NCBI GenBank assembly: GCA_045837725.1
Contig: JBEWZL010000124.1
Location: 186,001-250,000, forward strand
From: Vermamoeba vermiformis
Lineage: Eukaryota
Direction of reading: 5' to 3'
DNA length: 64,000 bases
In this document: positions 1-43,343 of the stretch, one piece after another
How the letters are laid out: each line of letters begins with the position of its first letter
Position numbering within the stretch: position 1 is the stretch's first letter
Notes under the pieces: generated by a model
What the model saw: only the letters and a program-made list of their open reading frames with translations
What the model was told of the DNA's origin: nothing
Database searches by the model: none
Position numbers and translations under genes: made by a program

Positions 1-2975
1 GGTCTTCTCGTTTTCTTCGTGCACTCATAGTGACTATGAGCAGGACCATGGCTGCAATAAGAAGTATGCCAAGCGGTACTGTCAAGCCAACCACTAACGC
101 TATTGATGTCTTGTCTTGTGGACAGCTCAAAGTGAACGTGATTGTTTTGGAGACGGATCTGATGGACGGTGAATGGCAGGCACGTCCTTCACTCGATATC
201 TTCATCATAGAATCAAAATTACTGCCGCCACATGTTGTCGTGATATAAAACACTGGTGTCTCTACTTCTGACTCGGCCATGTCGAACACAATCTCGCCTT
301 CAAATTGCATGCAATCAATGACCAGAGTGTCTTTGTTGCGTACCACGAGCTTGGCGTTAGGTTCAACAATCAAATCTGAATGAACGAAGGAACTTTAGTA
401 AGTGATCGGATCAGATTCGCTAGTGGGTCGGACTTACTATGAAACGCCGCCAAGGTATGTATATCCGATAGTCTTAACGTTGTTCCTGAATGTACATAAA
501 GCGTTGACTTGGCTGGACAATGAGCTGTTGTTTGGCGGTTAGTACCAAAAAAGACAGACCGGATGCGTCGATTCAGTACGTACAGTCGTAGCACTTGAAT
601 TCCTCTGTAGAGCAACAAAACGCATTTCCATCAATATTACATTGGCTGGCTTCACTTTTGAAGGTCGAAGGTAGCGCCAAACATCCGCGAAACAAATTGT
701 CTTGGATGTGAAGCTGTTGAAGTGTTCTCATATTGTTCATCGCTGGCAACGTGCCAGTAAACCAATTCGAAGAAATATTACTTAAATATCGTTAGTATGA
801 CACTAGTAGCGTTTGTATTAGTATTACTTACAGTTTTCTCAAATTTTGCATCGAAGTTATTCCGTGCCCTATTGTACCATTCAAGTTGTTGTTAGACAAG
901 TCCCTAAATATTATACGTTAGTATGTGTAACTTAAGGCGATACATTCAACGTACAGCTCGGCTAGAGGCAGTTCGAAAAGTTCGACCGGGATCGTGCCAG
1001 CGAGGTCATTGTTGGCCATGTGCAGCTCTTGCAAGCGAAACAATCGAGACAGCGTTGATGGAAGTGTACCACTGAACGCGTTATTGTCAATTTGAACGTA
1101 GTTCAGAGAACTTAATTGTCCAAATGACTCCGGAATCGTGCCGCTGAATCGATTGTTGTCGATCTTTAAAATTCGTAGTAGACCTCTTGTAGTCAATCCT
1201 GGCGGGATAGTTCCGATGAACTTGTTGTCACTTAAGTATAGTTCAGCAATAGTGTTGGTCAAATCAAATAAATGCAACACAGATCCGGTCAGCTGATTGT
1301 TCGACAAGTCGACAGTGCGCAATCTGTTCAGCAACCCGTAAGTGATGGGTACGGTGCCTGTCAGTTGATTGTCATTTGCAGTGAAGTAGCCAAGCCCTGC
1401 GGGTAGAAATCCGGGTGATTCGAATGAAGGCAAAGGACCCGAAAGTCTGTTGGCGCCAAGTGTCAGATCCGTCAATCGTCTGTTTCTTCCGAGTGCTCGA
1501 GGGATGGTACCAATCAAGTTATTGTTGTTCAATATGAGGCTAACGATCGATGGAAGTGATCCAAATGACTCGGGAATGACACCACTGATGCGATTGTGTG
1601 CCACTGCGAAGGTCGTTAAAGATGCCATGCCTCCAATGCTCTGTGGCAACGTGCCAGTGAGATTATTGAACACTATGTTGACGATCTGGAGTTGTTGTAG
1701 GTTTCCTATTGAGTTGGGTATAGGACCTTCCAGTAGGTTGGCGTAAGCGTGGAAAGCTTGAAGTGCGGTGAGCTGTCCAATGCTCTCAGGAATTGTTCCA
1801 GAAAATCTGTTGAAGCTCAATAGCAGTTGTTGAAGTTGCGTTAGCTGGCCTATATCGTTGGGTATCGTTCCAGTGAGCTCGTTATTTTCTACTTGAAGCC
1901 AGAGCAAGTTGCGCAGATTCGTGATCGAGTTCGGAAGTGTTCCGCTAAGTCGGTTCCTGGACGCCAAGAAGTGCGTCAGTCCGACCATATTTCCAATATC
2001 GTTTGGTATTGTGCCAGTAAGCTGATTGTCTGCGATTAAGAACTGCGTGAGTGTTGTGAGCTGCGTAACAGATTTGGGGATCGTGCCGGTCAAATTGTTT
2101 GAAAGGGCTTCAAAGCGCACTAATGTCTTTAATTCTCCTATTGACTCGGGTATTGTTCCACTAAGCTGATTGTATGCGAAGTCGAAGGCTAGAATGTTCT
2201 GAAATTGGCGAATCTTGTTGGAGATCGTGCCAGAGATTTTGTTGTGTGATATACTAAAGATCCCAAGACTCGTTATTTGATATATTGACTCTGGTATAGT
2301 TCCACTAAGCTCATTACGGCCCAAGAGTAATTGTTGCAGTTTGGTTAGCGTTCCAAGTTCCGCTGGGATCGAGCCTGTTAGCTTATTTCCAGCGAGAAAA
2401 ATGGTGTCCAAGTAGGTGTTTGCTGCTAAAGATGCTGGTATCGTTCCTTCAAGCTGATTGGTGTTGAGATAAAGATGCTGAAGGCGTGGAAGGCCACTGA
2501 AATCCGGTATCGTGCCCGTAAATTGATTTGAGGGCAAATATAAATAAAATAAATTCGTTAAATTATTGATCCATGTTGGTATTGTGCCACTAAGCTGATT
2601 TCCACCAAGCCAGAGTCGTTGAAGCATTGACAGATTTTTGATCGACTCGGGTATTGTTCCCGATAAGTGGTTACCTTCTAAATTGATGAGATCGAGCATT
2701 AATAAATTTCCAATCGATTCTGGAAGTGTTCCAGTCAGTTGGTTGCTTGGCAGATTGAGCTGGACGACGCGCGAGTTGATGCACCCGATCCCCGCCCAAT
2801 AGCAGGCTGAAACATTGTTTGAAAGCCAATTATCTGATCGAAGCCAATATTGTCCATTTGTGGAGTGGTAAAGTTGAGTTAATATTGCACGCTCTTCCTC
2901 TTGTGGATCGCATCGTGCGCAATTTGTCAAAAATAAAACAAATACCACCAATGCATGTTTAAATAATACTTTCAT
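1..2975 (-). CDS. Plant-type LRR single-pass receptor-like protein (signal peptide, LRRNT cap, ~25 LRRs, TM); 3' end runs off the window
   Basis: ORF 918-2975 has a signal peptide, a W-x-G-I-x-C cap and 24-aa repeats LxxLxLxxNxLSGTIPxSIG. Spliced downstream exons give ...DKTSIALVVGLTVPLGILLIAAMVLLIVTMSARRKREET (TM plus basic stop-transfer) at the window edge. Confidence 0.9.
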
Positions 2976-3225
2976 CTTGTAATCATGCTTACGGTATTTA
3001 CAAAATGATTGACCGAATTATGACGGTGTCAGAGGCCACAATAAATCACACTTTTTACCTTTTAGATCAATGCATAAGTTTTAGATAAAGCAACACGATA
3101 GCAACGAAAATGTTCATAATCAATCAAGTCTTAATCAAGGTACGACAGCTTTTGTAAAATGTGAAAGTGTCACTTGTCAACCAAAATTAGACGACAATTA
3201 GCATCGGTATTTAAAGGCTATTTTA

Positions 3226-6200
3226 TTAAGCAGTAGTTTGCAACTCGTGCTCCATCTGCGCAGAAGGCAATGTGCTCTGAGTGATCATTTTGCGTTGTTT
3301 GGCAGCTTCATCTTCGTCAAAGCCTTCGAACTCGTCTTGTGGTGACTGCGCGGCCTTCATTTTGTGCACTTGCACGATCACCACAGGCACTACGACTGCT
3401 GCAACTCCGACCACGATAATCACGATAAGAACACCTATTGATGCTCCCTAAGCGTAAAACAATGTCGTTAGTTTCACTTTCGCGGAACGAAAATTTCAAA
3501 TTGTTGTTCGGCAATGAACAAGTTATAATGCTAATTTGATATCCATGTTCAATTACATTATTGCTGGAATGTAGCTGGACATTAATGGTTTCAACAGAAT
3601 CAAAAATCAATTTAAAAGGATGTGAATAATTTTTTACGGCCATCATTGACGACGCCGTTTATACCAATAAATTAATTGAAGCACTGCAATATAATAGCAC
3701 AAAAGTATTTAACTTACCTCGCCAATGCCAAACAATCCACCCGAGTTGTTATTGCTGTCGCCGTTCGGAGATTGAGTGCCCATGCCTGGCTGTTGAGTCG
3801 TGATCAGCACTGGATAGGACAGTGCAATTGACTGCGCGTATTGTTTGCCCAGTGAGGACCAGCAGTACGCCAATCCACCGAATGACTGTGAAACTGAAGC
3901 ACTTAACGAGCACTCCAGTGTTTGTGCACTGAGATACGACGTGTTTGTGCGAATAGTCAGTGTCACCGTGCAATTCATGTCACGTGACAAGTTAGTGCAT
4001 TCTGCTTGTGGCGTGGAGGTGATCAATAGTGATTGGTCTGAACACGTCAGATCTGCCGTGAAGTTCGCGCTTGATGGACCTAGAATTAAGTAGCATAATG
4101 TTACTATGTTCAATAATAATTAAACTAGTTTTGATAAAAGAGTTGAAGTTAGTGGTCGGATCCGTTTTCAGCTGCATGATCCGAATCTACTGCACGACGA
4201 TATAATTTGATTGTACACGTACCGCTATTATGTATCTGAGCGGTTAAGAACTTAGTAAATGCCACTTGATCACTCGTTGACCACTCAACTTGACTCCATC
4301 CAATCAAGTTCATTGACGACAACTCCGGATCTGACTCGTGTTGTGACCACCAGTCTTTGTCCATCAGCAAGTACGACTCACTCGCAATGACATCGTCGCT
4401 GTAGTCCAAGCAGTAGTTGTACGGTGCTTGCATGGTGATGGACTGCGTGAACTGTTTGCCTTTTGATGACCAACAAGTGGCACGTGTCACACTCACTTGC
4501 CAGTTGCACGTGATTGACACATTGCTCAGACCTGGCGAGCCCAAGTATAGCACTGGCACTTGAACTGTCAAGGTGGCACCGGCGTCGATGAGAACTGTCA
4601 CTGAACTTCCATAAATGGAAATAGTGTTATCTCCCGTCGAGATCTGACACTGATCGACAGTGACGTTGAACTCGCCTTGAAGATTGCCTCCGTTTTTGAC
4701 TGACGATGACACGAGCACCGTGAAGTTCTGAGGATTGTTTGCTGAAGTCCACTCGAGAGGTGTGATGGAGAACGGATTCTACGCGAGGTGTTAGCATCGA
4801 TATTTCCATTTATGGTAATAATATGTCGTACCTGCTGAGCAGCGAATGGATTGGGATTGACACGCCACACAGACTCGCTGTACACGAGGAATGGTTGACC
4901 CAAAGCAGTGACTGTGCTCGAGTCCGTGCACCCGTTCTCGAGTGAGAAATCCATCATTGAGGTCACGTACTTGTTTGACGAGCTCCACAGCTTTTGTTGC
5001 GGAATTGAAATAAACAAACTGCAGCTGTATAACAAAGATAAATTAGACTTGCTTGAGCTTTGGTGATTTGCTTCGGTACCTGTAGTTGCCCGTTAATGAA
5101 GTCGCTGTGGCATCCACGGCGATGGTCAAGTTCACTGTCGAGCCTGCTGGAACAGTTTGCGCGGCACCGTCGATCGATATTGACTCGGGACAAACACCTC
5201 CAAAAGGTAAGTCAAGTTACGGGAAAAAACAGCAAGCGATGAAATAAATAATATTGATCAATAAAAAGGATATTAAACAATCCAGGGCCGTCTCCAGAAT
5301 TCGTAATCGTTAAAGTGAGTTCGTACATTTGACCTTTCACCTGTTTGTCAATTGACCACGTGCCAATCATAGGTTCTAATATTTCCATTCCTCCCCGTTG
5401 TGCGTTAATATTAACGGTGAGTTGCACTCGCTCTAATGCCGCATTGTACGACATTACTAAATTCGAACCTTCTATTCTCATTCGCTCCTTAACTCAAGTT
5501 AGTTATTGCTACGTAACGGGGACAAACGTACTTTTGTACCATCGACAGTTCCGTATAATTTGGCAAAGTTGCTAATTACAGCAGGTAGTGTTGAAGTCGA
5601 GGTATCTTTCATCCAATATGAAAGTTGATAGTTCATGCAAGTACCTACCGAAGTTAAAAAGCGAGAATAATGTTATTTGTACATACCATATGCAGATGAA
5701 CAAAAATTTGGTTGATTGTAGAAATCGGCCATTGAAACGTCGATTTTATCGCAACCACCGCCAAAATAGGAAAGAGGTACTAGCCGCCAAAGATAATTCG
5801 ATGGACTTGGTGTTGAGGCTAAATCAGGTAATAATAAACGTCGGCTATTAAACGCGACTGCCTGATTCAATGCAGACCCGCTGGGAAGCGAAGTGTTCGC
5901 ACTAAAAAATCTCTTCAGCCCCATTTCAGTTCCTCGATCAGAAAATTGTGCGTCATCGAAAGTCGCAGAATAATCTAGTCTCACGTAGATCGGATAGACC
6001 AGCTGGTAATCACTTGGAGTTGTATTAATATCGTAAGCGCCGAACGGTAATTGTGAAATTGTGTTCCTAAATCATATTAGGAAATAGATAGATACTGGAC
6101 AATGAATACCATGTATGCAACTCCTGGTCACAATTAGGGCAAAATACGTTACGAACCGAGCCTTTGGCACAAACTTTACCGGCTCTAGCCGTTATTGGTG

Positions 6201-7747
6201 CCATCCACCATCGGAACGTTGGCCTTATTCCTCTAGTTGAATATAATACTGAAATTTGGGTGCCTAAAGCTTGTTAATTAAAGCCAAATTGTATTCGATA
6301 GAATTACCATTTGTAAATGTAAATAACCCACTGTACGCGCTATTTAAAGCAATTGAATCTGCCTCGATGACAGCCACATCTTTTGAATCGCCTTCCTACA
6401 ATAGCAAATTATTACAATACCAATTCATGGGCCAGACTTACATTCCAATAACGACCAACATGAGCTAAATACAGAGTCGCTGAATTTGGAAGCAAATCAA
6501 ACAGCGGTTGGATGTATGTTCTAAAATGTAATTAGACTGTAATTAAACTGGCACTTTTGTGGATAAACGTACGAGGGTACTTCTTCGAAATCGTCGCTCA
6601 AAAGCGTAGAAGTCGCAATATTTCCTTCTACATGCTCAAAATTGGGAGTTAATACCCGATATAATATCAAAGGCAATTTCAGCTCTGTTGATGACTTTTG
6701 GGCGCTAATCTACGACAAACTTTAATATTTCGAAATGACTAAATTACCTTACCTTCAGAGGATACTTCAACAGATAGCTATCTCCCGAGTCGTCAATAAA
6801 AGATGTAATGGTAATGTTGAAGGGCGCATAGCCGGAGAAATCGAGCTGGAGGGAATTATAATGTGATACTGAGGATATAAGGCTTACATTCACGGTTAAC
6901 GTCCAGTTGCACGGAAGACCAGCGATATTGCTTGTGCAGAGACTACCAACAATGCTTGTGACAGGAGGATCTGTGTTTGGCACAACTGTTGTAGGAGAGA
7001 GGACCGGTTGTGCAGGGCAATAACTTGGCCTCGGAGGCACATTGACGGGTGTGCCTGATGCCACTCCACTACCGGTAGTGTAGTTCATATAGCCCAAAAA
7101 CTAGGCGAGTCAGATTATTGTAGCCGTGAGATAAACGATAGTCACGTACCTCCATCAAGTAGTTTTGATAATTACCATCCATAAATCGGTTTGATATAAA
7201 CAAATATAAAAATGCGTTGTTAGGCAGCGTGTTCGCGTTGAAAGTGACTCGGAGAAAATCTCCGCGGCCATTGTTTGTAGCTGAATTTGGCTTGAAAACA
7301 TCGCCCGTTGCGGCATTTGTAAGGTACTAATTATTCGATTAATAAGCCGTATTTAATACACCTATAATTACTTACAACAGCGGCAGGTTTTCCAGTTGAA
7401 GCAGTGTTCAGATCAGTCAACAATGTCGCATAAGTCAATGCACCGCTCGCTGAATAGGCTGACAATAATTTTCGATAACCCGTCGAACGAAAATACCTAA
7501 TAGAAGTCATATTAGTACAATAAATTCGTAACTTCAAGCCGTAAACTTACTCTACATTTTGATTGAAAGTCAAATCAATATTAGTGGCTTGTGCAACGCT
7601 TAATACTGTTCCACTCGAAGGCGATACTGTAACTGATACGCAACCACTACCTACAGTATACGGCAATGATGGATTCGGCTGCGCTTCAACGAAGTAGAGC
7701 AGACCCAACGAAATTGCCGCTAGCAGCAACCATTTCTTCGCCACCAT
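3226..7747 (-). CDS. HAP2: Divergent HAP2/GCS1-like class II fusogen (fusexin), multi-exon, with signal peptide and C-terminal TM
   Basis: Spliced translation contains LWRLVPLSYFGGGCDKIDVSMADFYNQPNFCSSAYGTCMNYQLSYWMKD, matching the HAP2 signature C-x-KI-x-V...F-xx-Q-xx-xC...G-x-C-x-x-x-QL. It also has YPLKISAQKSSTELKLPLILYRV and Ig-like repeats before TM GVLIVIIVVGVAAVVVPVVIV. Exon joins near 5200-5280 are uncertain. Confidence 0.75.
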
Positions 7748-8393: not shown

Positions 8394-11300
8394 TTATTTT
8401 CGCTTGTTTCCTGGTGACGTGCCAGTTGACCTCGAGTTGCCCGTGTTCTTATTCAAGATATCATACGTTTCAATAGGCAATGGGTTCTCTGACGACATGA
8501 TGAAGTCACTAATGTACTCGGTAGCGTAGACCGGTGCCTTTGCTTTCTCGAACTGCTCCGCGATTTCTTTCTCGCTAAGCTTGGCCTTGTCTATGATAAT
8601 GTGCGTCACTGAGTTCAAGTTGGTGAATGGTGGTGTGTCTTGCACGACTACTGCTCCACCTGATTCCAAGACACGCCTCAGACCATCTTGTCTCTTAGCC
8701 ACCACGTAGAGTGCTACGCGCCATCCGTCAAACGCGCCCTTCTTGTTTTCTCTAGCTAGTTTCAAGCGCCATCTTCGTGCTGCTTCGAGCAGATCTTTTT
8801 CTCGCGGGTTGGTCGCATCCGCTGCGTTCCACTCGTACGGCTCTTCTTTGACGAATCTGCCGGCCTTTTGACAAGCATCCAGGTACGAAGCTTTCAGTAC
8901 CCAGATACCCATAGCACAAGCGCCAAGGTACTTCTCGGATCTGATCGGCTTGTGCGCGATCACGTGTGTGCACGTGCTGTCAAAGTGCTTCAAATAGACG
9001 CCACCAAGCTCTTTGATTATTTTTGGCATATTGTTCTTAGCATCGGTATTATCAAAGCCAGAGATAGAAAAGACCGGTGCGTCTTTGACTGGCGAGGTCT
9101 TGATCGGTGAACTCGTCTTGCGCTTTTCCACGGGATCCGTATTTGACACGGGTGAAACTCGGCTAGGAGTTTTAGGAGCAGCTGGAGGGTTGCTATTTAC
9201 CCTAGTGTCGGGTAGTAGTTGCTGAGGCACGGGCTTGGGAGGCGGTGACTTCTTAACAGGTGGAACGGCTCTAGCGGTAGGTTTCACAGCCAGCAAGTTG
9301 GACATTGAAGTCTTCTTTTGGCTCTCTTCGTCCACATCAAGCGCTTTGAGGAATCTGTCAATGCCGGCTTCATCCACCTTATTCGACACTCTTCGTCTTC
9401 TTTGGGTTGATTGTGTCGATGTGCCCGTGTCCAATTCACTCTTGTACGCGATGACTTGTGAATCGAATTCTTCTTGTTCCAGCTCAATAGATGCATTGAT
9501 AGTCTGATCTATGATCATATTATCGCTTCTAGGCTCGTTAGATGAATCTCTTAAGATTGCCTCGTTCACCGTCTGGTTCAGTGTCAAAGTCAGATTCGGA
9601 TCACCTCCGCGAGCACGCTGAGAGAATGGCTGTGATTCGTTAGCACATAGTCTAAAAATGTTGTAACTATTACTTACATCGTCAAGAAGCTCGGCACGAC
9701 TAATTCTGCGCGCTGTGCCTTCGACCTGCAACTTGGATGTGTCCTTCGGTTTGAAGGTTTTGATTTGTGGCTTAGCAGCAACAGTTTCCATCAGCTGGTC
9801 CAAATCTTCTAAGATCTGGTTATTAATGGAATGGTCTTCCTCGACTACAGGCGAGTTCTCTTGTTTCAACGCGTCGAGGAACTCCAGATTCGGCAGATCG
9901 GTCATGGTCTCGGTGTTCTGGTGGTAATTGTCATCATTGCTGTTCTCGACTTTGACTGTAGGCAGTGCGTGCGCATTAGCGTCAGAGAGTGCTGAGAGCA
10001 TCTCATCAGAGGCAGCGTTGATCTTAGACTGGAAGTCACGCGAGTCATGACTTTGGTTGACTGCCGCGCTGTCCTCGCCAATGGTGAAGAACTTGCTCTC
10101 TTTGACAGGCTGTTTCTTCGTCGCATGGTGTGAAGGTGTAGCAGCGACAGGACGAGTGAACAATCCCGTAGCATCACGTTGACTTCTGAAGCTTGGACTT
10201 GGCAACAACGAGGCGTTACTCTCGTGTCGGTCCTCGTTGGGTGACGAGTTGGGCGAGGACGGGAAATAAGTCACATTCAAGTGCGAGTCCGTTCTCTTCT
10301 TCTTCGCGGTGCTATTGACATTAGACACAACAGGCGCTGCTTTTCTCTTGCGCGAGGCAGTTGTGCTGTTCGGGGCTGACTTGTTTGGCTGTTGCACCAC
10401 GGGGGATTGCACCAACGACGTCCTCAAAGAGCTCCTGTGATAGGATTAGCGCACGTAATATTATAAAATAGATGGCGAGCTTACTTAGCAGGCGTAGTTG
10501 TTGGAGCTGTGGTGACAATACCAAGTGCCATGCTCGGGTTGTAACTCGACGGGAACGATAACTCCGGAACTCGTCTATTCTCTTCCTTACACTACAACAA
10601 GCATTAGAATGCTAACGTAGACATATATTCATACCTTTCGTAACCAATGTGAAGACACAATGTGCGCGCCGCGTTGCTTGACATTATTGAACTCGCGGTT
10701 ATTCTCGATCTTGCCGTCGTGAATGTAATGCGTAACATTATCGTCATAGCCCCAAGAATAACTACCCCCAAGGCTGCTTACTATATCGATTAACTCAGCT
10801 TGGATATCCTAAGAAACGAACATCAGATCCGCATCCAAAAAAGGAAATTCCAGTACGCGTACCACAAGCTTCTTGCCAACGTAGATTGTAACGCCCTTAA
10901 GTACGTCGCTTATGCGAGGATCTTCTTGTTTGATAGGCTTCTTAGCATAATCTCGCTCTTGTTTGATTGGTCTATCTCGATCCATACTCAAAGGCAACAG
11001 ATCGACTGAAATTGAATTAGAAATTTTGTAAATTAGCTAAGTGCTCTTACCTTCTGCAGGCAGTCCGTAATATTCGCTATTAGATATCTCGTCCTCCTCA
11101 AATGCAATCGGATTATTCATATCGTCTTCTTTGAACAGATCGTCGCTTGTCGGAGCAGATCGCGGATGCTTCTTGCTGCTACGGTTAGCCACTGGTTCGC
11201 TTTCTGCGTATGAGGTGTTGTATCGGCTATTAATGCCAAAGAATGAATGTTTTGATTCCGCTACGTGAAAGCCCTAAAAAAAAGTTCGTGGAGGTTATTT

Positions 11301-14025
11301 CCGGGATTTTAGCAATTTGGCCAGTACAAAAATCATAATCATTATTTTTCCGATGCAATCCTCTTACCCTAGTAACGCATTCTTCAAGCCATTGAACTGT
11401 TACAACACGTATGTCGCATTCAATGGCCTTCTCATACTTCTTGCCCTCTGGTCGCTTACAAATTAAGTGCGTGGTCATTTGGGCTTTCAAAGAGGGATTG
11501 TATGCGGCACCAACTAATCTAATAAGCAGCTCCAAGTTCTCTCGCTCTTCAGGTTCGAAGTTCGAGGTAGTCATCATAAACTTCTCCATAAATGACTTAT
11601 AATGACTAACTGAGAATGGAAAAGGTCTGAATACTATACAGTCTGTCGGATTAAGCAGCTTTTGGCGCTAAAATATGGTTAATTACGCATTTTCAGGTGG
11701 ATCAGATCTAGTTAACTTACGGCTAAACTGACTTCCAACCAGTGAATGCTAACGGCAGGAGGCTTTGGAGCGCCTCTTTGAAGGTTGATAATATCTAAAT
11801 AGGACTCCATATTCGCTGAACCATGAGGCATAACAACGTAATTGATTAGAGTCCGATCGCCGTGGTCGCGCAGCTTGCGAAGAGCGTTAGGAAGAAATGC
11901 TTTGCCACCTTGAGCCTCGATAAATCCTTGTACATCACGTACCTATAATTGTTGGTAAATTATCAATATTAAATAAATATAATTTCGAAGATCTGAACTT
12001 ACATCCGAGTCGCGGAAATTTGCGACCAAAAAATTAATTTTAGAGAACAATGCGTTTGGATCGAAAGGCGAGGACGATATCTCTTGATCCATATCAATAT
12101 CTTCTTGCTCTGTTTTCATTCTCTTTGCTTGAGGCTCGTACTCGCTTCCTTCATTGGACTTCCGTCTTTGTGCCACGATTAGGATTGGCAGGCACTATAA
12201 AATATCATTAATATGTCTACTATAATATGAATCGAATAATAGTACGCTTACATAATCGGTAGTTATCTGGCGCCAACAGCCGTCGCTGTTTGTAACAGTC
12301 TAATAACCATCTCGATGATAAAATTGGCGCCGAAATATTAATCGAGCGGAATGTATCAATATCGCTAAAATAATATCGTTAGATCATAATATATAGGATG
12401 TTTGGAGTTTGAGCGTACCCTTGATTAATAGTATTGCCAACAACAAAATGCGTGACTTTGCCATCCATATGAGGCCATCGAACTCCGCCACCGTTCAATA
12501 TCATATTCTTAATACGAACGTTTTGATTTTCAGTAAATCCGCTCAAATAAATAACGCATCCGTCAAAATACTGATTTCCTTCTTCATCGCTGTTACTTCG
12601 CTCATAATTATTCGCTGAGCTATTGTTCTGATTTCTAATAATATCGTTCTTCTTCGCTTGGATTTCATCGTCAATATTATGAATGTCCTCGCTAGGATTA
12701 CTATTTTCAACTCGTTTTAATTCTTCTTCGGTTACTTGAACTTCTTGCGGAACAAATCCAACCATTTCATCCGTAATTAAATACGGTGTTTCATCTAACC
12801 ACACTATATAACATTAAATTAGCAGAAATTCAAGAGTAAATTTAGATCGGATCGCAATGAAAATATTGTTGAAAACGTACCATTTCGTCTAACGCATTCC
12901 TCAAACCACGAAAGTGATACTACTTTACAATTTGTGCAATGAGTGCGCGCAAACCAATATTTGCTTGAATATCCAACGTTGAGATTTTTAGGCTGTTACA
13001 AATCAGTTAAAGAAAACAAATGCAAAAGTGTTAAATATGGAAAATGAATACGAATGTTTCAAAATAGGATACGTCTACTATTAAGTGAGTATAATCAATA
13101 TTGGTAGTAGTCGTCATGTCTTCGCAAATTCTGCCGCCATGTTTTGCCGCCAGAATTCGCATTTCTTCTCGTTGTTCCGTAAATTGCACGCCAGAAATAG
13201 CCATAACAAATCCTTCGAATGGTCTGACTAAATAATCTACTGTCGGCAATATTCTGTCCTTTTTCTAAAGATAGATCCGGATCAGATCTTTTCTAAAAAA
13301 GCAATAATAGTTCAAAGGCTTACCCAACAGTCTGCTAGCCATGCAAATCGTAATAATTTAACTCCGTATTGCAATGCTGCTTGATGCTTTTCGCTGCCAG
13401 CTTTTTGAACTAATAGATGCGTGGTATCTCCTGACATCGCATCGACGAACTTGCCCATCATATAGCTAATAAGCAGTTGTACTTGTTTCTATTTAATAAT
13501 GATATTAGTCTCTCGCAATAATATCTGACGTTCAAGTTTCAAACAGATCGGATTAGTGTTTTTTTACCTTTTTATCGCCAGCTGCTCCTGATGTGCAAAT
13601 AGTTGTTCCTTCTAATATTCTATTGCATACAGGCAATACTGATAATGGTGGCAGGGGTTTCTTTCTCTCTGCGGATTCTAAAACGGCAGAAGCTCCTGTC
13701 ATAAGTATTGGAAACTGTTCAAAATATTTTTTCGTGGTTATAATATTTACCTAATAAATATTGAGGCTGTCCTTCGCTTCTCAACCTTCTGCAGGTTTTA
13801 ATATAATCTTCCTGTGAAAAATATTAATTCAAGTTCGTATTTCCGCTTAAATTGAGCTCTATAAATTTCACTTACCCCTTCAAATCTTTCTAAAATATAA
13901 ATATCCTTTCCAGGCCTAAATTTGTGCGTGATCGAGGCACCGTGCGTAATTAATGCCTCTCGCACTTGTTGGTCAATACCAACGGGTAAATATGGTGATA
14001 TATGTACAGAAACGCCTGACCACAT
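8394..14025 (-). CDS. TOPBP1: Multi-BRCT checkpoint/replication scaffold (TOPBP1/Rad4/Cut5-like)
   Basis: At least 7 BRCT repeats across exons (e.g. FDGCVIYLSGF...GGG...THFVV; THLICKRPEGKKYEKA...VTVQWLEEC). A C-terminal tandem BRCT pair has THVIAHKPIRSEKYLGACAMGIWVLKASYL and GAFDGWRV. Confidence 0.85.
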
Positions 14026-14261: not shown

Positions 14262-15906
14262 TTATTTATTAGGTTTGGCATTTTTGCTCTTAAAAGCAAA
14301 TTCAGCACATAAAGGTAAGTGATCCGACGGGAAATTTTCATTCGGCAATGTACCAATCTCTTTCATCCCTTCCTCGTCCGGCAACTGCAAAATCTTCGTC
14401 ACATCCAACGTCTTTGGCGTATAAAACATGTAATCTAGTGTACCACTGAACTCCTCTATATTAAAATATCGTTAGAAATGCGTTAGATCCGGCAAGTTAA
14501 CGGACGGATGTGGCTAACGCCAACGATACGTACTGGTATGATTAGTCGTCCAAGGCTCGCCTATTGTATTTCCATAAGCACTCTTTAAGTTGAGTTTATG
14601 TTGTATTCCTTGTTCCCAAGCAACTCGCTGCGTGCCGTTGTCATCGAACGTCAGATCCGGACTTTGGTGCTCGAGTTCACCGTTGACTATGAAATTATAT
14701 AGGCCCGATGTTGGTTTACTATTGAAATCTCCGCAAAGAACTATCGGCGTCTCGTCAATATTGAGCTTATTATGGTCGAAAAATTGTTGCAAAGACTTGA
14801 CCAACATTTTCGCTTGAATCGTCTTAATTGCTGTATGATCAGGTCTCCAATATAAATGTGTATTGGCAATGACTACTTGTCTTTTTGTATTGTTTTCTTC
14901 GAACAGACAAAACAACGCGACGTGATCTCGTTTGGCAAAGTTGAACAAAAATTTGCTGTTGATCCGTTGCATGAATGAAGGGTCTTTCATATACTCTTGT
15001 ATTCTTCTTCCATATTCTACTTCTTCTTTAACTTTCAGCGTAAACCTAATCAAAAGAATTGGTAACAAATCTAATTTGACACGTGTCATATTGCTTTGAA
15101 TAACGTAAACGAATGTTTGCGGTTATTTAGTCCCTTATAATGTAATTCATACCTCGATTTCCTGTAAAATATTGTGGCGCCATCGACGCTTGGTCCATCT
15201 CTTCCGTCTCTAATTCGGCCCTTGGGCAAGTACACGCCTTCAAAATTTCTGAAGCGGAAATTGATCGTAAAGAAATTGTTAAAATCTGTTTTTTCAAGTT
15301 CCTAATCATAAAAACATTATTATAATATTTCCTTATAAGGAAATATTCGTACTTGTAATGCTACAAAGTCAGAATCGAGTTCTTGAAGCTCCTCTGTCAA
15401 TCATTTGTCGCCTTCGAGGCCAATGTACAATATCATAAGGCACGCCCATACTGGCCTCGTGCTTCGGTACTAATATATTATAGCTTGTAACAAGAAATCT
15501 GTCTGTGAAATGAATGTAAGTCCAGTTGATAGAAGTTTTCGGCTCGATCGCTTGATATTCGTATTGTTAAAAGAAACATTGCTTACCGTTAGCTTTGTAT
15601 TTATTTTCGAATTCTCTAAACGGAAATTTATGCTTGGGGCCCTTCTCGTTCGCTGTAAATGGAGATCCGTCAATAAATTATTTCAATAAATTGCAAAAAT
15701 TGGTAGTGCATTAAAAACAGATGAAATATGATACATTGAATCATATCAGCGTGCTTTCGCGCTTTAAATATTTTCTGTAGCGCAAATAACCATGACAGAT
15801 CAAGTGAATTCATAGAAAACCTACCAAGTCCTCTTACTGATGGCTTAGCGATAATATTGGCGGAATTAAATGCTCGCCGCAGCATTCCAATCAATTTATT
15901 GGCCAT
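14262..15906 (-). CDS. EEP-family (CCR4/Angel/PDE12-like) phosphodiesterase, possibly mitochondrial; apparent +1 frameshift near 15400
   Basis: Motifs SYNIL, ALQE, IANTHLYW, LCGDFNS, LDYMFY, PSDHLPL. The basic, acid-free N-terminus MANKLIGMLRRAF resembles a transit peptide. Confidence 0.85.
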
Positions 15907-24390: not shown

Positions 24391-26267
24391 ATGTCCTTAG
24401 CGCAACTAAAGCAAGTAGAATCGCTAGAAAGCTGAGGATATTTCGTTCGAGCTCGACTCGTGATATTCTCAAATAATTACAGACGCTCCAAATGTTAAAG
24501 AAGATATTTCTTATGGCATTAGAAAACCAGTCTGTACAAATTGTAAAAAACGGAAGATCAAGTGCGATTTTGAACTGCCCTGTTTTCAATGCAAGAGCCG
24601 CAACGTGACCTGTGAATATCCTAAACCCAACGTAAAATCCCCGAATGAAGGACAAATAGTAAATTCATTGATGAAGAAGGTCGATCAGCTGAAAAAAGAA
24701 CTCGAAGATCAAAAACAGATGGTGAATTATTGGCGGAGTTTGTCAGAATCAACGAATACCCGACAAAATAGCCCAACTATAATTAGGAATATCAGAAGAA
24801 CCAATACTTTCTCGAAAGAAACGCAGCAGTTTATCTCTAACGTCACAGCAGCAGTCACATCCGTCTCCAACGCCTTCACAAACGTAATCAAAGCAGTGAT
24901 GCCGAGCTCTACCATCGAGTATAACGTAGTATACGCATCGATGATATGGAATCGATTATTGGACATGACACCAGAAGATTGCGTCGAAAACATCAAATCC
25001 AGCTGTTCACCAGAAACTGCAACTCAATTATTATTACATTGTACGATCTTCGCATTAGGTAAGCATCATAATGATAGATTTATGTTAGTAGTAGCGAAAC
25101 ATAACGATTGCGCTTGCTTACCAATTCTCCTTTTATGGAAATTTGTGCACGTGCTTTAACACGATTTTTGATGTCGTTTAATTAATTAATTATTTTAATT
25201 ATAATAGGATGTCGTTTATATGACCGTAGCATCGCCGATCTCGCAGAGCATTTTCATCTGATCGCGATGAAGTTGATCAACTCAGGCTGGATCGATGCAA
25301 CACGAGACGATACAGCAGAGCAGTGGATATTATCATTGATGTATACTATGTTCTATAATAGGAACAGATTTTTACCCATTGGACCGCTTTGGGAACGAGC
25401 ATCAGAATTGCTTGTAACGCTGCCGAACTTGGAAAACGATACTTATATCGAGTAAGTGCTTATAATACTATAATATCTTAAATATAATATTAATGAACCT
25501 TTTCTTAGAATTGCATTAACTTTGGTGGTCTTTAATCCTTTAAAATGCAATGCGGAGATGAAATGGTTGCAACGACTGGATCAAGCACCACCATTTGAGC
25601 CGGTAAGGATTATCATACAAATATAAATACGATAGGATGTATCTAACGTTTCAGATTGAAATTCAATTCCTTCGTAGTGCGATCCGGTTATGTCTCGCAC
25701 TTGCGAGAGTAGATCCAGCCAATGGCAAGTCTTCGTAAGTATTATAGAGCCACTAATATATATATATATATATATATATATACTGCCCTTTTGAATCCAA
25801 TGATCGATTCGTTGAATGCTAAATAGCTTGTACGATGGATCCGTTCGTACTCACATTTGTTCCTTAGAGATCTGTGGGACTACATGGTGAACCTCGAAGA
25901 TATTTTGAATAGAATGCTAGATATACCGTACTATAAGTTCTATGGCGTACTAGTATACACGCTGAAGTCAATCAGTGCATTCGTTGGTTCACCAGATCCA
26001 CCTGCTGAGATCGCAAAGTGCACGCAGATTATATCGAGATTTTATTCAGAAATAACTGATAGTTCACAACGATATTTCTTAAGTAGGACAATAGAACACT
26101 ATAGATTTGTATTATCGAGCAAATCAATAACATTGCCTGATGGTCGGAAAGTGACTCCGATGGCGGATGTGTTGTACAATATTATCATTCAGATCACTGG
26201 TGCTGAACCTGATAGCGAACTCGAACAGAGCTTGACGAATATGGGACTTAAAGAAGACGATAAATAG
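24391..26267 (+). CDS. Zn(II)2Cys6 binuclear-cluster transcription factor (start uncertain)
   Basis: CTNCKKRKIKCDFELPCFQCKSRNVTC = C-x2-C-x6-C-x5-C-x2-C-x6-C near 24533-24613, followed by a coiled coil and helical exons. Confidence 0.8.
25756..25782. repeat. (TA)n microsatellite in an intron
   Basis: About 13 perfect TA units. Confidence 0.95.
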
Positions 26268-31800: not shown

Positions 31801-32762
31801 GGGCTGACACGAAGCAGCTCGCGAGCCCGAACATTTTGACACGCCCAAAAAAAAATGTAGTTGAGTGTAAAATTACACCACGAACTTGTAGCAAGCGCAC
31901 GATATCCCAACGATTGAGAAGCAAAAAAGAAAAAAAAGAGGAATCCGACCTGCCGGAATCGAACCAGCGACCTAAGGATTGATGCTTCACTACAGTCCTC
32001 CGCTCTACCGACTGAGCTAAGGTCGGTTTGATGACCGCGGCCTTCGCTGGTCCGTCGGGGCGACAGGACGGAGGAGCACAACTCAGGAACACCCCGGCAG
32101 TCCCGGATAGTCCCAGTCCGGATCCCCAGGATTGCAAGAGCTTGGCGTGCGCACTAATTCTCTCCTGAACAGTTGCACAACTAGCCCCTCAATATGGATA
32201 CGGCTTGACAAGTAACCGTCAAGGTAAACTCACGACCTCAGTCGGTAGAGCATAGGCAACGTTGTGTATGGATAGCATTTGAAGTAACTTACGTGTTTCC
32301 AAATTGTTCTTGAACCAAGCGTAATCCTCGAGCTCTTGCATGCATATAATGTCGGGTGTCTTGTCTTGAATAGCGTTGAGAATGAGTTTCCTTCGATACG
32401 GCCATTTCAAAGCAGGGTACGGGCAGTATGGATAGAACGAATAATTGATGTACGAATCAGCAAGGACATTCCAAGTCATTAAGCTGAAGTTGGTGCCTTG
32501 ACACGATCGGGTCAGTACGTTCATTAAAAATTTAATTCGTTTACGTACCAACAGTCTGCATCGTTCCTTCATCGTGCATCATTTTATTATTTTTGCATTC
32601 CATAATTTTTAAAGGAAAGCAAATTTCTGACGTTTGTTGGTGTCGTTGCGCTGAGATCGAGATCGACCTTGTGGATCCATTATTTGACGATGATCGAACG
32701 TGTAAATATGTACAAGTTGATGATTTTCGACAATAGCCACGAGCGAAGTACTTGCAAATCAT
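28890..32762 (-). CDS. CCCH zinc finger plus EEP (Angel/CCR4-like) phosphodiesterase; 2-kb intron 30297-32292
   Basis: N-terminal CKYFARGYCRKSSTCTYLH; motifs TWNVLA, ICMQE, DGCAIFY, ATTHIYW, CGDFNS, VDYIFY, PSDHLAL. Splicing 32293 to 30296 joins in frame as LETLGYKG. Confidence 0.85.
30339..30412 (-). tRNA. tRNA-Ile (TAT), intronless, inside host-gene intron
   Basis: Cloverleaf with anticodon arm TGGTG-CTTATAA-CGCCA, A and B boxes and an oligo-T terminator. Acceptor stem has C3:A70 and T6:T67 mismatches. Confidence 0.9.
30925..31521 (+). CDS. Secreted Cys-rich protein nested antisense in the EEP gene intron
   Basis: Intronless 198-aa ORF with signal peptide and two Cys-rich halves; AATAAA at the stop. 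Confidence 0.75.
   Translation: MKALLFTYILSLLLLFVQASFIIESIGCNASTPFVQADVRVYNGNCFPEKFGWKLIECGEDEAIESMCDNSQCTQGCLQKQVYQLNKCKDNVYTMCTKSFPNITKLTGNPGPYVVSKSFNEEYHAGCEAKYAETTYYDLTGVCRKYLQSKSYFLSCDPNDALEWLFEKNTVCQGAVTELLTTRFSCTPTSFVTCEYYP
31548..31620 (-). pseudogene. Degenerate tRNA-like element (possible GTC/Asp anticodon)
   Basis: GCCCCTG-TGGTTCAGTTGGTAGAAT (intact A box/D arm), TTCGA-containing B-box-like loop and T11 terminator. The 3' acceptor strand is missing. Confidence 0.55.
31672..31744 (-). tRNA. tRNA-Trp (CCA) with G27:A43 mismatch
   Basis: Acceptor GGGGGCG/CGCCCTC, anticodon arm GCGGA-TTCCAGG-TCCGA, T arm GCGTG-TTCGAAT-CACGT, T6 terminator. Confidence 0.9.
31944..32026 (-). tRNA. tRNA-Tyr (GTA) with 10-nt canonical intron (31980-31989)
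   Basis: C1-G72 acceptor CCGACCT/AGGTCGG; GAGGA-CTGTAG-[TGAAGCATCA]-ATCCTT; oligo-T terminator. Confidence 0.95.
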
Positions 32763-43300: not shown

Positions 43301-43343
43301 CAACAAAGAGAGTATTTTTGCGACTGGCAACAACGATATGTAA
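37372..43343 (+). CDS. DNMT1: DNMT1/MET1-type C5 cytosine DNA methyltransferase (RFTS-like, BAH1, BAH2, MTase); apparent +1 frameshift near 40472
   Basis: Motifs [86 protein letters not shown] and RFTS-like exons upstream. Confidence 0.93.
38657..38775 (+). rRNA. 5S rRNA gene inside DNMT1 intron 38545-38876
   Basis: 119 nt; terminal helix GGGCACGAC/GTTGTGCTC; CCCGTCCGATC, box A (AGTTAAGC), TTAGTACTG, CCTGGGAA; T-run terminator. Confidence 0.95.
41326..41426 (+). ncRNA. Box C/D snoRNA, U58/SNORD58-like, in DNMT1 intron 41284-41492
   Basis: 7-bp terminal stem GATTAAT/ATTAATC; box C ATGATGC (41333); box D CTGA (41414); C' ATGATA. Guide TTGGGACACCT (41352-41362) is complementary to conserved LSU AGGUGUCCUAA. 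Confidence 0.75.
42576..42671 (+). ncRNA. Box C/D snoRNA, U18/SNORD18-like, in DNMT1 intron 42537-42730
   Basis: External stem TGAGGTTTGGGTCTA/TAGATCCAACTCA; box C ATGATTA (42593). Guide TTGGTCCGTGTT (42612-42623) is complementary to conserved LSU AACACGGACCAA. D' and D both read ATGA. Confidence 0.8.

What the first reader, a model, noticed from the sequence alone, without database searches (positions are those of the whole stretch)
3226..7747. Divergent HAP2/GCS1 fusogen with extra N-terminal domain and three tandem domain-III-like modules
Seen: roughly 200 aa (ending in a P/T-rich linker) precede the HAP2-like start (...LCTSNIAGLPCNWTLTVNV). The usual Cys-rich CCxC segment appears absent, replaced by a stretch carrying a candidate fusion loop RPTFRWWMAP followed by ARAGKVC. 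Three Ig-like modules each end in WSSxxK (LWSSSNK, CWSSKGK, CWSSLGK). Established: HAP2 is the ancestral gamete fusogen, typically with one domain III. Inference: this indicates cell fusion or cryptic sex, via a fusexin with added adhesion or reach modules, or a non-fusogenic paralogue.
Basis: partly seen in the sequence, partly recalled or inferred. Interest (0 to 1): 0.75.

Follow-up and report, generated by a model that had tools for sequence, protein, structure and literature searches.

The report
Divergent HAP2-like fusion protein gene
This is an intact, evolutionarily conserved gene for an unusual relative of HAP2, the protein that fuses gametes in many eukaryotes, carrying an extra front domain and three repeated modules before its membrane anchor, so the organism probably has a cell-fusion (sexual) stage.

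Summary
On the minus strand, 7747 to 3226, I built a 16-exon gene that reads as one open 1155-aa frame. It encodes a signal peptide, about 195 extra N-terminal residues ending in a P/T-rich linker, a HAP2-like body, three homologous modules each with WSSxxK, one transmembrane helix and a 48-aa tail.

Its ATATCCTTTT donor, terminal AC and reading phase are conserved in a 74%-identical metagenomic relative, L001.

Window versus L001 gives dN/dS about 0.10 over 583 codons, so this is not a pseudogene.

HAP2 kinship rests on the signature motif only:
- The window exon scores 20.2 bits against Pfam PF10699, below the 27.4 cutoff.
- The relative's uninterrupted stretch covering window exons 9 and 10 scores 28.2 bits.
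- A family profile puts all five distinct HAP2 PDB sequences on top, the best at E 3.2e-6.

The class II fold and the domain-III identity of the modules could not be tested: the spliced protein is not accepted by the fold tool, and the two piece models had pLDDT 42-46. Three RNA runs showed almost no reads. The organism is unresolved.

Verdict: new variant of a known kind.

The parts
3226..7747 (-). Whole gene, from ATG to TAA: 16 exons and 15 introns, giving an 1155-aa product
   Evidence: Shortest-path exon model plus manual revision; one open frame with no internal stop
7551..7747 (-). Exon 1 (aa 1-66): signal peptide (aa 1-22, 7747-7682) and the start of the N-terminal extension
   Evidence: N-terminal hydrophobic stretch; GTAAGT donor
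7376..7496 (-). Exon 2 (aa 66-106), N-terminal extension
   Evidence: no relative covers it
7150..7326 (-). Exon 3 (aa 107-165), N-terminal extension
   Evidence: no Pfam hit
6748..7100 (-). Exon 4 (aa 166-283): end of the extension, P/T-rich linker (aa 181-215, 7055-6951) and the HAP2-like start with C220 and C229 (6950-6876)
   Evidence: the likeness to the HAP2 N-terminus is recalled and was not tested
6573..6704 (-). Exon 5 (aa 283-327)
   Evidence: colinear with relative P0005
6442..6520 (-). Exon 6 (aa 327-353)
   Evidence: Colinear with P0005 and L001
6308..6395 (-). Exon 7 (aa 354-383)
   Evidence: Colinear with P0005 and L001
6110..6263 (-). Exon 8 (aa 383-434): aromatic and basic loop RPTFRWWMAP (6225-6196) and the cysteine cluster C414, C424, C427 (6174-6130)
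   Evidence: Conserved in L001, P0005 and P0012
5687..6066 (-). Exon 9 (aa 434-561): carries the HAP2/GCS1 signature motif, which spans aa 527-569 (5789-5619) and runs on into exon 10
   Evidence: PF10699 at E 2.5e-4; best PDB hit is 5ow3 HAP2; family profile scores 5ow3 at E 3.2e-6
5532..5644 (-). Exon 10 (aa 561-598)
   Evidence: Contiguous with exon 9 in L001 and P0001, which lack this intron
5274..5487 (-). Exon 11 (aa 599-670): includes the first strand of module 1 (..ELTLTITNSGDGPGLF)
   Evidence: 83% identical to L001 over aa 599-776
5207..5273 (-). Intron 11: U12-type AT-AC intron of 67 nt. Donor ATATCCTTT, branch-like CCCGTAAC 11-12 nt before the end, terminal AC
   Evidence: Motif located. 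The same donor, terminal AC and phase occur in L001 while the interior differs and is 8 nt longer. No GT-AG or GC-AG intron joins the two frames (my reading)
5080..5206 (-). Exon 12 (aa 670-712), module 1
4832..5024 (-). Exon 13 (aa 712-776): end of module 1 with WSSSNK (4987-4970), then a linker
   Evidence: Contiguous with exon 12 in L001
4223..4778 (-). Exon 14 (aa 777-962): module 2 (aa 795-897) with WSSKGK (4472-4455), a linker, and the first strand of module 3
   Evidence: Relatives P0013-P0015 and L001 are 72-77% identical and end at the same exon border; dN/dS 0.157
3718..4079 (-). Exon 15 (aa 962-1082): module 3 with WSSLGK (3861-3844) and a Gly/Asn/Ser-rich stem
   Evidence: Homologous to module 2, z 9.1. 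The acceptor is chosen from sequence alone; an alternative acceptor would place the exon start at 4103
3226..3447 (-). Exon 16 (aa 1083-1155): transmembrane helix (aa 1084-1107, 3444-3373), 48-aa acidic cytoplasmic tail, and the stop
   Evidence: Apart from the N-terminal signal peptide, this is the only strongly hydrophobic stretch; 19-aa windows reach Kyte-Doolittle 3.4. It is preceded by an unusually long 270-nt intron

Best explanation
This is a working gene for a type I membrane glycoprotein of the HAP2/GCS1 (fusexin) family, of a divergent subfamily. After the signal peptide the ectodomain has four parts:
1. A beta-rich extension of about 160 aa and a P/T-rich linker, which canonical HAP2 lacks.
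2. A HAP2-like body that keeps the family's signature motif.
3. Three tandem homologous cysteine-containing modules. The first sits where HAP2 domain III sits.
4. A short stem, one transmembrane helix and a short acidic tail.

The pre-mRNA needs both spliceosomes: 14 short GT-AG introns and one U12-type AT-AC intron. That intron holds the stop codon that makes the gene look broken.

Inferred mechanism: the protein is made only at a mating or cell-fusion stage. Like HAP2, it inserts an aromatic tip into the partner membrane. The candidate tip elements are RPTFRWWMAP and the HTW..LPFGAY stretch, which flank a small disulfide cluster. The protein then folds back to merge the membranes. The two extra membrane-proximal modules would act as a longer stalk, and the N-terminal domain would serve recognition or adhesion.

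Shown here: gene structure, intactness, purifying selection, motif-level HAP2 homology, internal triplication, and membrane topology from hydropathy. Inferred only: the class II fold, the fusion loops, trimerisation, fusogenic activity and stage-specific expression.
For: Intact gene:
- The 16 exons give one 1155-aa open frame.
- Relatives confirm many exon borders. P0005 spans exons 5-9, L001 spans exons 6-14, and P0013-P0015 end exactly at the exon 14 donor.

U12-type intron:
- A perfect ATATCCTT lies at 5273-5266. That is where the two frames need an intron and where no GT or GC donor fits the phase (my reading).
- L001 has the same ATATCCTTTT donor, a TTCCTTAAT branch site, a terminal AC and the same phase.
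- The interior is diverged, 8 nt longer in L001 (75 against 67 nt), and holds a stop in both.

Selection:
- dN/dS is 0.096 over 583 codons against L001, with synonymous sites near saturation (pS 0.69).
- By region it is 0.064 for the motif, 0.074 for module 1 and 0.157 for the extra module 2.

HAP2 homology:
- 1 of 16 exon translations hits PF10699 (E 2.5e-4, 20.2 bits).
- L001's uninterrupted stretch covering window exons 9 and 10 (74% identical over 163 aligned residues) scores 28.2 bits against the 27.4 cutoff.
- More distant family fragments P0011 and P0012 score 38.0 and 30.1 bits.
- A profile of the family (A4) against 177,635 PDB sequences returns 7 hits at E up to 10. The top 5 are the five HAP2 sequences: 5ow3 at 3.2e-6, 7s0k at 0.031, and 6e18, 5mf1 and 6dbs at about 0.1. 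All align on the same C..[IL][GD]V....F..QP.FC motif.

Triplication: M1 against M2 gives z 4.9 and M2 against M3 gives z 9.1, with 0 of 300 shuffles reaching either score. The joint alignment keeps the cysteines and WS..K in register.

Topology: an N-terminal hydrophobic signal and one strongly hydrophobic stretch at aa 1084-1107.

Precedent: Dictyostelium HgrB resembles HAP2 only in the motif, which sits at residues 496-556, yet it is required for gamete fusion (PMC4910948, passages read).
Against: - Homology to HAP2 is detectable only over about 45-85 residues. No other exon or module hits PF10699, even at E up to 1 or 10.
- Of the 9 family fragments scanned, 5 gave no PF10699 hit. Two of those, P0002 and P0008, cover the motif.
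- The window's own exon is below Pfam's cutoff.
- The module profile found no HAP2 domain III in the PDB; its only hit was a phage protein at E 0.46.
- The two structure models were unusable (mean pLDDT 42.1 and 46.4), and Foldseek on one of them gave no hit at E of 0.001 or better. The class II fold is therefore untested.
- No full-length relative and no named HAP2 was retrieved by three word-index searches and one exhaustive phmmer search.
- Three RNA-seq runs under the same species label laid only 12 partly fitting reads on 5 kb and no splice joints. Neither expression nor any intron has transcript support.
- Exons 1-4, 15 and 16, and the long introns 14 (143 nt) and 15 (270 nt), rest on sequence signals alone.
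Confidence: 0.6

Rival explanations
1. A non-fusogenic HAP2 paralogue. The organism also has a canonical HAP2, and this protein has kept only the motif-bearing core. It would work as a recognition, adhesion or co-factor protein of the fusion machinery, as proposed for Dictyostelium HgrB or MatD/MatT.
For: - Similarity to HAP2 is confined to the motif. That is how HgrB is described, and HgrB's motif also lies about 200 residues further from the N-terminus than HgrA's (496-556 against 283-331; PMC4910948).
- The extra N-terminal domain and the repeated modules are typical additions for adhesion proteins (inference).
- There are fewer cysteines in the presumed domain II than I recall for HAP2 (22 in the whole protein, no CC pair).
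Against: - The aromatic and basic loop next to the cysteine cluster is conserved across relatives down to 22-37% identity. That would be expected for a membrane-inserting tip.
- HgrB itself is needed for fusion, and its precise role is unknown.
- No canonical HAP2 could be looked for, because no genome is held.
- phmmer of exon 9 against 1.84 billion representatives returned no full-length relative, so no closeness to HgrB is shown.
Confidence: 0.28
2. A decaying or dead gene: a pseudogene, or a gene broken by a frameshift or by an assembly error near 5200-5280.
For: - There is an in-frame TGA at 5214-5212, and the reading frame changes between 5274 and 5206.
- There are practically no RNA reads in three runs.
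- Two unusually long introns lie near the 3' end.
Against: - The frame change is removed exactly by an AT-AC intron whose donor, terminal AC and phase are conserved in L001.
- There is no other stop in 1155 codons.
- dN/dS is about 0.10 overall and 0.157 or lower in each of the three regions that could be scored.
- Four environmental relatives keep exon 14 at 72-77% identity.
- HAP2 transcripts are reported to be hard to detect outside mating stages (PMC6263441, passage read).
Confidence: 0.05
3. Not a HAP2 relative at all: an unrelated secreted Ig-like repeat protein that shares a short cysteine motif with HAP2 by convergence or chance.
For: - Only one short region matches.
- The language-model neighbour search on exon 9 gave only unnamed or bacterial Ig-like clusters at scores of 0.85 or lower.
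- No structural confirmation was obtained.
Against: - All five distinct HAP2 sequences in the PDB rank first among 177,635 sequences with the family profile, the best at E 3.2e-6.
- Three family fragments pass Pfam's curated cutoff.
- The motif lies in the expected order between an N-terminal two-cysteine strand and a membrane-proximal beta module followed by a transmembrane helix. This colinearity is judged from recall of HAP2 and.
Confidence: 0.07

Closest known systems
HAP2/GCS1 gamete fusogens (Pfam PF10699; solved structures 5ow3, 5mf1, 6dbs, 6e18, 7s0k as listed)
   Same: - Signal peptide, large ectodomain, single C-terminal transmembrane helix and cytoplasmic tail.
- The signature motif with its three cysteines, in the same relative position.
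- A beta module after the core, where domain III lies.
- Pfam and PDB-profile matches.
   Different: - About 195 extra N-terminal residues.
- No adjacent-cysteine segment and few cysteines in the presumed domain II.
- The membrane-proximal module is present three times, with its trailing linker also duplicated.
- Sequence similarity is undetectable outside the motif.
- The tail is short and acidic.
- One paper search for extra or tandem domain III in HAP2 or fusexins listed only the archaeal Fsx1 paper, which concerns a domain IV.
Dictyostelium discoideum HgrB (PMC4910948; passages read)
   Same: - A divergent HAP2 homologue similar to HAP2 only in the motif region.
- The motif is central (residues 496-556; here 527-569).
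[quoted passage not shown]
- HgrB is shown by knockout to be required for sexual cell fusion alongside the canonical HgrA.
   Different: - HgrB is reported as limited to dictyostelids.
- The exhaustive phmmer search with exon 9 found no full-length protein, so orthology is neither shown nor likely to be close.
- Whether HgrB has repeated modules is not stated in the passages I read.
Archaeal Fusexin1 (Fsx1; PMC9259645, seen only in search listings)
   Same: A fusexin-family protein with an additional domain beyond the three class II domains.
   Different: The extra domain IV of Fsx1 is a different kind of addition (recalled). The protein here has repeats of one module between the core and the membrane, and it is eukaryotic with introns.
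U12-type (minor spliceosome) AT-AC introns
   Same: Donor ATATCCTT, a TCCTTAAC-like branch site 10-12 nt from the 3' end, terminal AC, and conservation of position and phase in a relative.
   Different: The window's branch site matches the recalled consensus TTCCTTAAC at only 7 of 9 positions (L001 matches 8 of 9). There is no transcript evidence, and the minor-spliceosome snRNA genes could not be sought because no genome is held.

Membership tests
HAP2/GCS1 (Pfam PF10699) | Significant match to the family profile, at Pfam's gathering score | tested here: met
   - Window exon 9 alone: E 2.5e-4, 20.2 bits, below the 27.4 cutoff.
- The spliced window protein could not be submitted to the tool.
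- L001's uninterrupted stretch covering window exons 9 and 10, which is 74% identical (120 of 163 aligned residues): 28.2 bits.
- Family fragments P0011 and P0012: 38.0 and 30.1 bits.
- Family profile A4 against the PDB: the top 5 of 7 hits are HAP2, the best at E 3.2e-6.

The feature is met for the family and for its closest relative, and only by E-value for the window's single exon.
HAP2/GCS1 (Pfam PF10699) | Type I topology: signal peptide, ectodomain, one transmembrane helix near the C-terminus | tested here: met
   Hydropathy shows an N-terminal hydrophobic stretch and one strong stretch at aa 1084-1107, followed by a 48-aa tail. No dedicated signal-peptide predictor was available.
HAP2/GCS1 (Pfam PF10699) | Class II fusion protein fold (domains I, II and III) | tested here: inconclusive
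   The full spliced protein is not accepted by the fold tool. The model of exon 14 (module 2) had pLDDT 42.1. The model of the domain II proxy P0012 had pLDDT 46.4. Foldseek on the latter gave 0 hits at E of 0.001 or better. Sequence profiles of the modules do not reach HAP2 domain III.
HAP2/GCS1 (Pfam PF10699) | Hydrophobic fusion loop or helix at the tip of domain II | not testable with these tools
   The candidates are RPTFRWWMAP (aa 396-405) and HTW..LPFGAY (aa 432-445). The first is conserved as an aromatic and basic loop in L001, P0005 and P0012. No structure places them.
HAP2/GCS1 (Pfam PF10699) | Expression restricted to gametes or a mating stage | tested here: inconclusive
   12 partly fitting reads in three RNA runs of the same species label, about 39 million records read, and no splice joints.
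HAP2/GCS1 (Pfam PF10699) | Necessary and sufficient for membrane fusion | not testable with these tools
   Needs a knockout and a heterologous cell-fusion assay.
Dictyostelid HgrB-type divergent HAP2 homologues | Sequence orthology to HgrB | not tested
   No HgrB sequence is available to the tools. phmmer with exon 9 against 1.84 billion representatives gave only fragments of the window's own subfamily, plus three long repetitive proteins that I set aside.
Dictyostelid HgrB-type divergent HAP2 homologues | HAP2 similarity limited to a centrally placed motif, with a signal peptide and a C-terminal transmembrane region | tested here: met
   Motif at aa 527-569 of 1155. No other region hits PF10699. 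HgrB as described in PMC4910948.
U12-type AT-AC intron | Donor /ATATCCTT, branch site close to the 3' end, terminal AC, and frame restored on removal | tested here: met
   Donor at 5273-5266. The branch-like CCCGTAAC puts an A 11-12 nt before the terminal AC at 5208-5207. Removal joins the two frames. The motif by itself is not rare: 3 in the window against 4.3 expected. The argument therefore rests on position and phase.
U12-type AT-AC intron | Conservation of the intron and its signals in a relative | tested here: met
   L001 has ATATCCTTTT, TTCCTTAAT and a terminal AC in the same phase, within a 75-nt intron whose interior is diverged.
U12-type AT-AC intron | Splicing seen in RNA | tested here: inconclusive
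   No joints were reported in the laid RNA runs, and depth was effectively zero.

The most novel reading that the evidence does not exclude
The genome may belong to an early-branching fungus or a close fungal relative. The window holds a Zn2Cys6 zinc-cluster gene, a DNMT1-type methyltransferase gene and very short introns. In that case this divergent subfamily would be the first HAP2-type fusogen candidate in Fungi, where reviews state that none has been identified, and would suggest that fungal HAP2 was missed through divergence rather than lost. A milder version: HgrB-like, motif-only HAP2 paralogues with repeated stalk modules are widespread outside dictyostelids.
Probability: 0.12. Interest if true: 0.85.

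Novelty: new variant of a known kind. Interest (0 to 1): 0.5.

Why it matters
HAP2 is the only widely conserved eukaryotic gamete fusogen. Its presence is used as evidence that an organism can have sex, and its apparent absence from some lineages is an open question: the abstract of PMC8784728 asks whether loss or divergence explains it.

This gene shows how far a HAP2 relative can drift while staying under strong selection. Only the signature motif is still recognisable. The architecture also gains an N-terminal domain and a triplicated membrane-proximal module, which I did not find described for HAP2 in one search.

It is also a practical warning. A single U12-type intron makes the gene look like a pseudogene to GT-AG-only gene finders. 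That, together with stage-limited expression, may explain why no full-length relative appears in protein databases, although at least eight environmental fragments exist.

If the protein is fusogenic, the longer stalk and the unusual tip would broaden the known design range of class II fusogens.

Tried and rejected
Searches for relatives and names:
- Word-index searches for longer relatives, with exon 9 and with alignment A1, scored nothing.
- The cluster look-up for names and sources was not available.
- No genome is held for the window or for L001, so I could not look for a canonical HAP2 paralogue or for minor-spliceosome snRNAs.
- The earlier-findings index had nothing for this place or this sequence. 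A word search returned HAP2 notes from other genomes that do not bear on this gene.

RNA:
- No RNA holder is listed for the stretch.
- The three same-species RNA runs gave 12 partly fitting reads at 90-99% likeness and no joints. The exon model therefore has no transcript support, and silence cannot be claimed either, because no control gene was laid.

Structure:
- The two AlphaFold jobs on pieces were low-confidence.
- Foldseek on the second model returned only noise.

Other sequence tests:
- The profile of the three modules against the PDB found no HAP2 hit.
- The protein-atlas neighbour searches were uninformative, both for the methyltransferase (bacterial clusters) and for exon 9 (scores 0.85 or lower).

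Gene model:
- A minimal-intron path skipped real exons, and a first short-intron path mis-modelled 5231-4783. Both were replaced.
- For the 5200-5280 frame problem I considered a 37-nt GT-AG intron (5220-5184), a GTTTAA donor at 5278 and a GC donor. I rejected them because they break the frame, delete the conserved cysteine, or are shorter than any other intron here.

Organism:
- Actin's best PDB matches are 4efh, which I recall as Acanthamoeba, and the chains labelled 'Major actin', which I recall as Dictyostelium. They score 831 and 826 bits against 820 for human beta-actin.
- An LRR_ComC hit leans weakly towards Amoebozoa.
- The zinc-cluster domain is not decisive, because it occurs patchily outside fungi (PMC5415576, passage read).

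Full report
**What is there.** The window is eukaryotic DNA of about 41% G+C. On the minus strand, between the ATG at 7747 and the TAA at 3228-3226, lies a string of short open frames separated by AT-rich spacers of 40-55 nt with GTAAGT..TAG ends.

A shortest-path search over GT..AG introns gave a first model. After manual revision the gene has 16 exons and reads as one open frame of 1155 codons. Fourteen introns are GT-AG: twelve are 42-55 nt long, and the other two are 143 and 270 nt.

Relatives found later confirm much of the model.
- P0005 is colinear with exons 5-9.
- The metagenomic locus L001 is colinear with exons 6-14 and lacks introns 9 and 12.
- P0013-P0015 run exactly to the exon 14 donor.
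- Exons 1-4, 15 and 16 have no such support.

**The apparent break at 5200-5280.** Upstream of about 5274 the protein continues in one frame (..TITNSGDGPGLF). Downstream of about 5206 it continues in another (..GGVCPESISIDG..). A TGA sits at 5214-5212. No GT or GC dinucleotide in the gap has the right phase.

The gap does begin with a perfect U12-type donor, ATATCCTTT (5273-5265). It also holds CCCGTAAC 11-12 nt before an AC at 5208-5207. Removing 5273-5207 (67 nt) joins the frames as ..GLF-TF-GGVCPES...

The 8-mer alone is not rare: there are 3 in the window against 4.3 expected. The case rests on position, phase and conservation. L001 has ATATCCTTTT at the homologous codon phase, a better branch site (TTCCTTAAT) and a terminal AC, and it reads ..GLF-SF-GGVCPDL.. 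across the junction. The interior of its intron is diverged, 8 nt longer (75 nt), and contains a stop. An 8-nt length difference is incompatible with coding sequence.

**Is the gene alive?** Codon-by-codon comparison of the window with L001 over 583 aligned codons gives 74% amino-acid identity, pS 0.69, pN 0.16 and dN/dS 0.096. By region:

| Region | dN/dS |
|---|---|
| Signature motif | 0.064 |
| Segment holding module 1 | 0.074 |
| Extra module 2 | 0.157 |
| Presumed domain II | not computable (pS 0.81, saturated; pN 0.23) |

The alignment was protein-guided and synonymous sites are near saturation, so the ratio is approximate. It is nonetheless far from neutral.

Four relatives keep exon 14 at 72-77% identity. 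At least eight environmental fragments of the subfamily exist, at 40-77% identity (P0001-P0006, P0008, P0012), plus the more canonical-looking P0011. Three further hits (P0007, P0009, P0010) are long repetitive proteins matched in 6-8 short stretches. I set them aside as spurious.

**Is it HAP2?**
- Scanning the 16 exon translations one at a time against Pfam, only exon 9 hits PF10699 HAP2-GCS1. The hit is E 2.5e-4, 20.2 bits against a cutoff of 27.4, on profile positions 227-288 of 515.
- The spliced protein cannot be given to the tools.
- In L001, exons 9 and 10 are uninterrupted. That 163-aa translation, 74% identical to the window, scores 28.2 bits.
- Of the 9 fragments scanned, 4 hit PF10699 and 3 pass the cutoff: P0001 at 28.2, P0011 at 38.0 and P0012 at 30.1 bits.
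- The other 5 do not hit. Two of them, P0002 and P0008, cover the motif.
- phmmer of exon 9 against PDB sequences puts Arabidopsis HAP2 (5ow3) first, at E 0.16 only.
- A profile of the subfamily (A4, 13 rows) returns 7 sequences at E up to 10. The first five are the five distinct HAP2 sequences in the PDB: 5ow3 at 3.2e-6, 7s0k at 0.031, and 6e18, 5mf1 and 6dbs at about 0.1. All align on the same cysteine motif. Fibrinogen gamma follows at 0.37.

Homology of the motif-bearing core to HAP2 is thus well supported. Outside those 45-85 residues nothing is detectable.

**Architecture.**

| Residues | Feature |
|---|---|
| 1-22 | Signal peptide |
| 23-180 | Extension with no Pfam match |
| 181-215 | Linker, 51% P, T or S |
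| 396-405 | Aromatic and basic loop RPTFRWWMAP |
| 414, 424, 427 | Small cysteine cluster |
| 527-569 | HAP2 signature motif |
| 652-735 | Module 1 |
| 795-897 | Module 2 |
| 945-1057 | Module 3 |
| 1084-1107 | Only strongly hydrophobic stretch apart from the N-terminal signal (transmembrane helix) |
| 1108-1155 | 48-aa acidic tail |

A second aromatic stretch (HTW..LPFGAY) lies just after the cysteine cluster, and a Gly/Asn/Ser-rich stem precedes the transmembrane helix. There are 22 cysteines, none adjacent, and 17 N-glycosylation sequons.

The loop at 396-405 and the cysteine cluster are conserved in L001, P0005 and the distant P0012.

The modules are true repeats. M1 against M2 gives z 4.9 and M2 against M3 gives z 9.1, with 0 of 300 shuffles reaching either score. 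M1 against M3 alone is not significant (z 1.1). In a joint alignment the cysteines, the WS..K motif and even the linker after M1 and M2 (..N.C.D.S....[QE][PS][FY]L......W) stay in register. The duplicated unit therefore included part of the stem.

**What could not be shown.** Mean pLDDT was 42.1 and 46.4. Foldseek on the second model gave nothing at E of 0.001 or better. The module profile does not find HAP2 domain III among PDB sequences.

Three things remain inferences from position and composition: the class II fold, the equation of module 1 with domain III, and the fusion-loop role of aa 396-445.

Three RNA-seq runs carrying the same species label, each about 46-48% read, laid 6, 3 and 3 partly fitting reads at 90-99% likeness and no splice joints. 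This neither confirms the model nor proves silence. [quoted passage not shown]

**Mechanism proposed.** The protein is a stage-limited surface protein that works like HAP2. The aromatic tip inserts into the partner membrane, and the protein folds back around a module-1 (domain III-like) hinge. Modules 2-3 lengthen the stalk, and the N-terminal domain adds recognition. I give this about 0.6 in total. The gene-level statements are near 0.85 and actual fusogenicity is about 0.4-0.5.

The main rival (0.28) is an HgrB-like accessory paralogue. In Dictyostelium, HgrB resembles HAP2 only in the motif, which lies at residues 496-556 against 283-331 in HgrA. It has a signal peptide, a transmembrane region and a short tail. 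It is required for gamete fusion without substituting for HgrA (PMC4910948, passages read). The similar displacement of the motif here (527-569) is suggestive, but I could not compare sequences. Pseudogene (0.05) and chance similarity (0.07) are unlikely, for the reasons above.

**Surroundings and organism.** On the same strand, a TopBP1-like BRCT gene lies upstream (8394-12813) and a plant-type LRR gene lies downstream (918-3017). Further along are:
- a Zn2Cys6 gene;
- a DNMT1-type gene with RFD, BAH and methyltransferase parts;
- an almost intron-free actin gene;
- two more LRR genes;
- a TAF5-like gene;
- a 5S rRNA gene and four tRNA genes.

Actin's best PDB matches are 4efh and the 'Major actin' entries, which I recall as Acanthamoeba and Dictyostelium. 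One LRR hit is to the Dictyostelium ComC family. The zinc-cluster domain is common in fungi but patchy elsewhere (PMC5415576, passage read). I favour an amoebozoan weakly and cannot exclude an early fungus or another protist.

This matters for novelty. HAP2 is on record in Amoebozoa (PMC6263441). The abstract of PMC8784728 states that no HAP2 or other fusexin has been identified in fungi or vertebrates.

**Verdict.** The gene is a new variant of a known kind: a constrained, divergent HAP2-family gene with an N-terminal extension, a triplicated membrane-proximal module and a conserved U12-type intron that mimics a break. Interest is 0.5. It would be higher if the host proves to be a fungus or a supposedly asexual lineage, or if a confident structure shows a class II core on a three-module stalk.

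Noticed in passing
window 5207-5273 (-) and L001 1290-1364 (+): A conserved U12-type AT-AC intron implies that this organism and its relative keep a minor spliceosome. Two other [AG]TATCCTT sites lie in the window, at 13901-13908 (+) and 41537-41544 (-). I did not examine them, and the second is antisense to the methyltransferase frame.
   Followed up: partly
window 37808-43340 (+), with 5S rRNA at 38657-38775 (+): This is a DNMT1-type gene in pieces: RFD at 37808-38269, BAH at 40164-40913, and methyltransferase at 41474-42439 and 42717-43340. A complete 5S rRNA gene (104.7 bits) lies on the same strand between the RFD and BAH parts, apparently inside an intron or a gap of that gene.
   Followed up: no
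window 28893-32578 (-): Three tRNA genes (Ile-TAT 30338-30412, Trp-CCA 31672-31744, Thr-AGT 31944-32026) are flanked by open frames with endonuclease/exonuclease/phosphatase domains (28893-29672, 32222-32578; another at 14517-15122). This may reflect non-LTR retroelements that insert next to tRNA genes, as I recall for dictyostelid TRE elements.
   Followed up: no
window 918-3017 (-), 47638-48348 (+), 50984-52684 (+): There are three genes with plant-type 24-residue leucine-rich repeats. The first is a single 699-aa open frame with a signal-like start, immediately downstream of the HAP2-like gene. It hits Pfam LRR_ComC at E 7.5e-15.
   Followed up: no
window 24464-25156 (+): An open frame carries a Zn2Cys6 binuclear cluster domain (E 3.5e-10). 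This family is mostly fungal but patchy elsewhere, and it is the main hint that the host might be a fungus.
   Followed up: partly
window 3167-3333: The few RNA reads that touch the gene cluster over the last exon and 3' end. All carry the same two differences (C3250A, A3262G) and run on into unlike sequence. They could come from another allele, another strain or a paralogue.
   Followed up: no
L001 541-1029 and 1367-1684: The relative has lost two introns that the window keeps (introns 9 and 12) but keeps the U12-type one. Intron positions in this gene therefore turn over among close relatives.
   Followed up: partly
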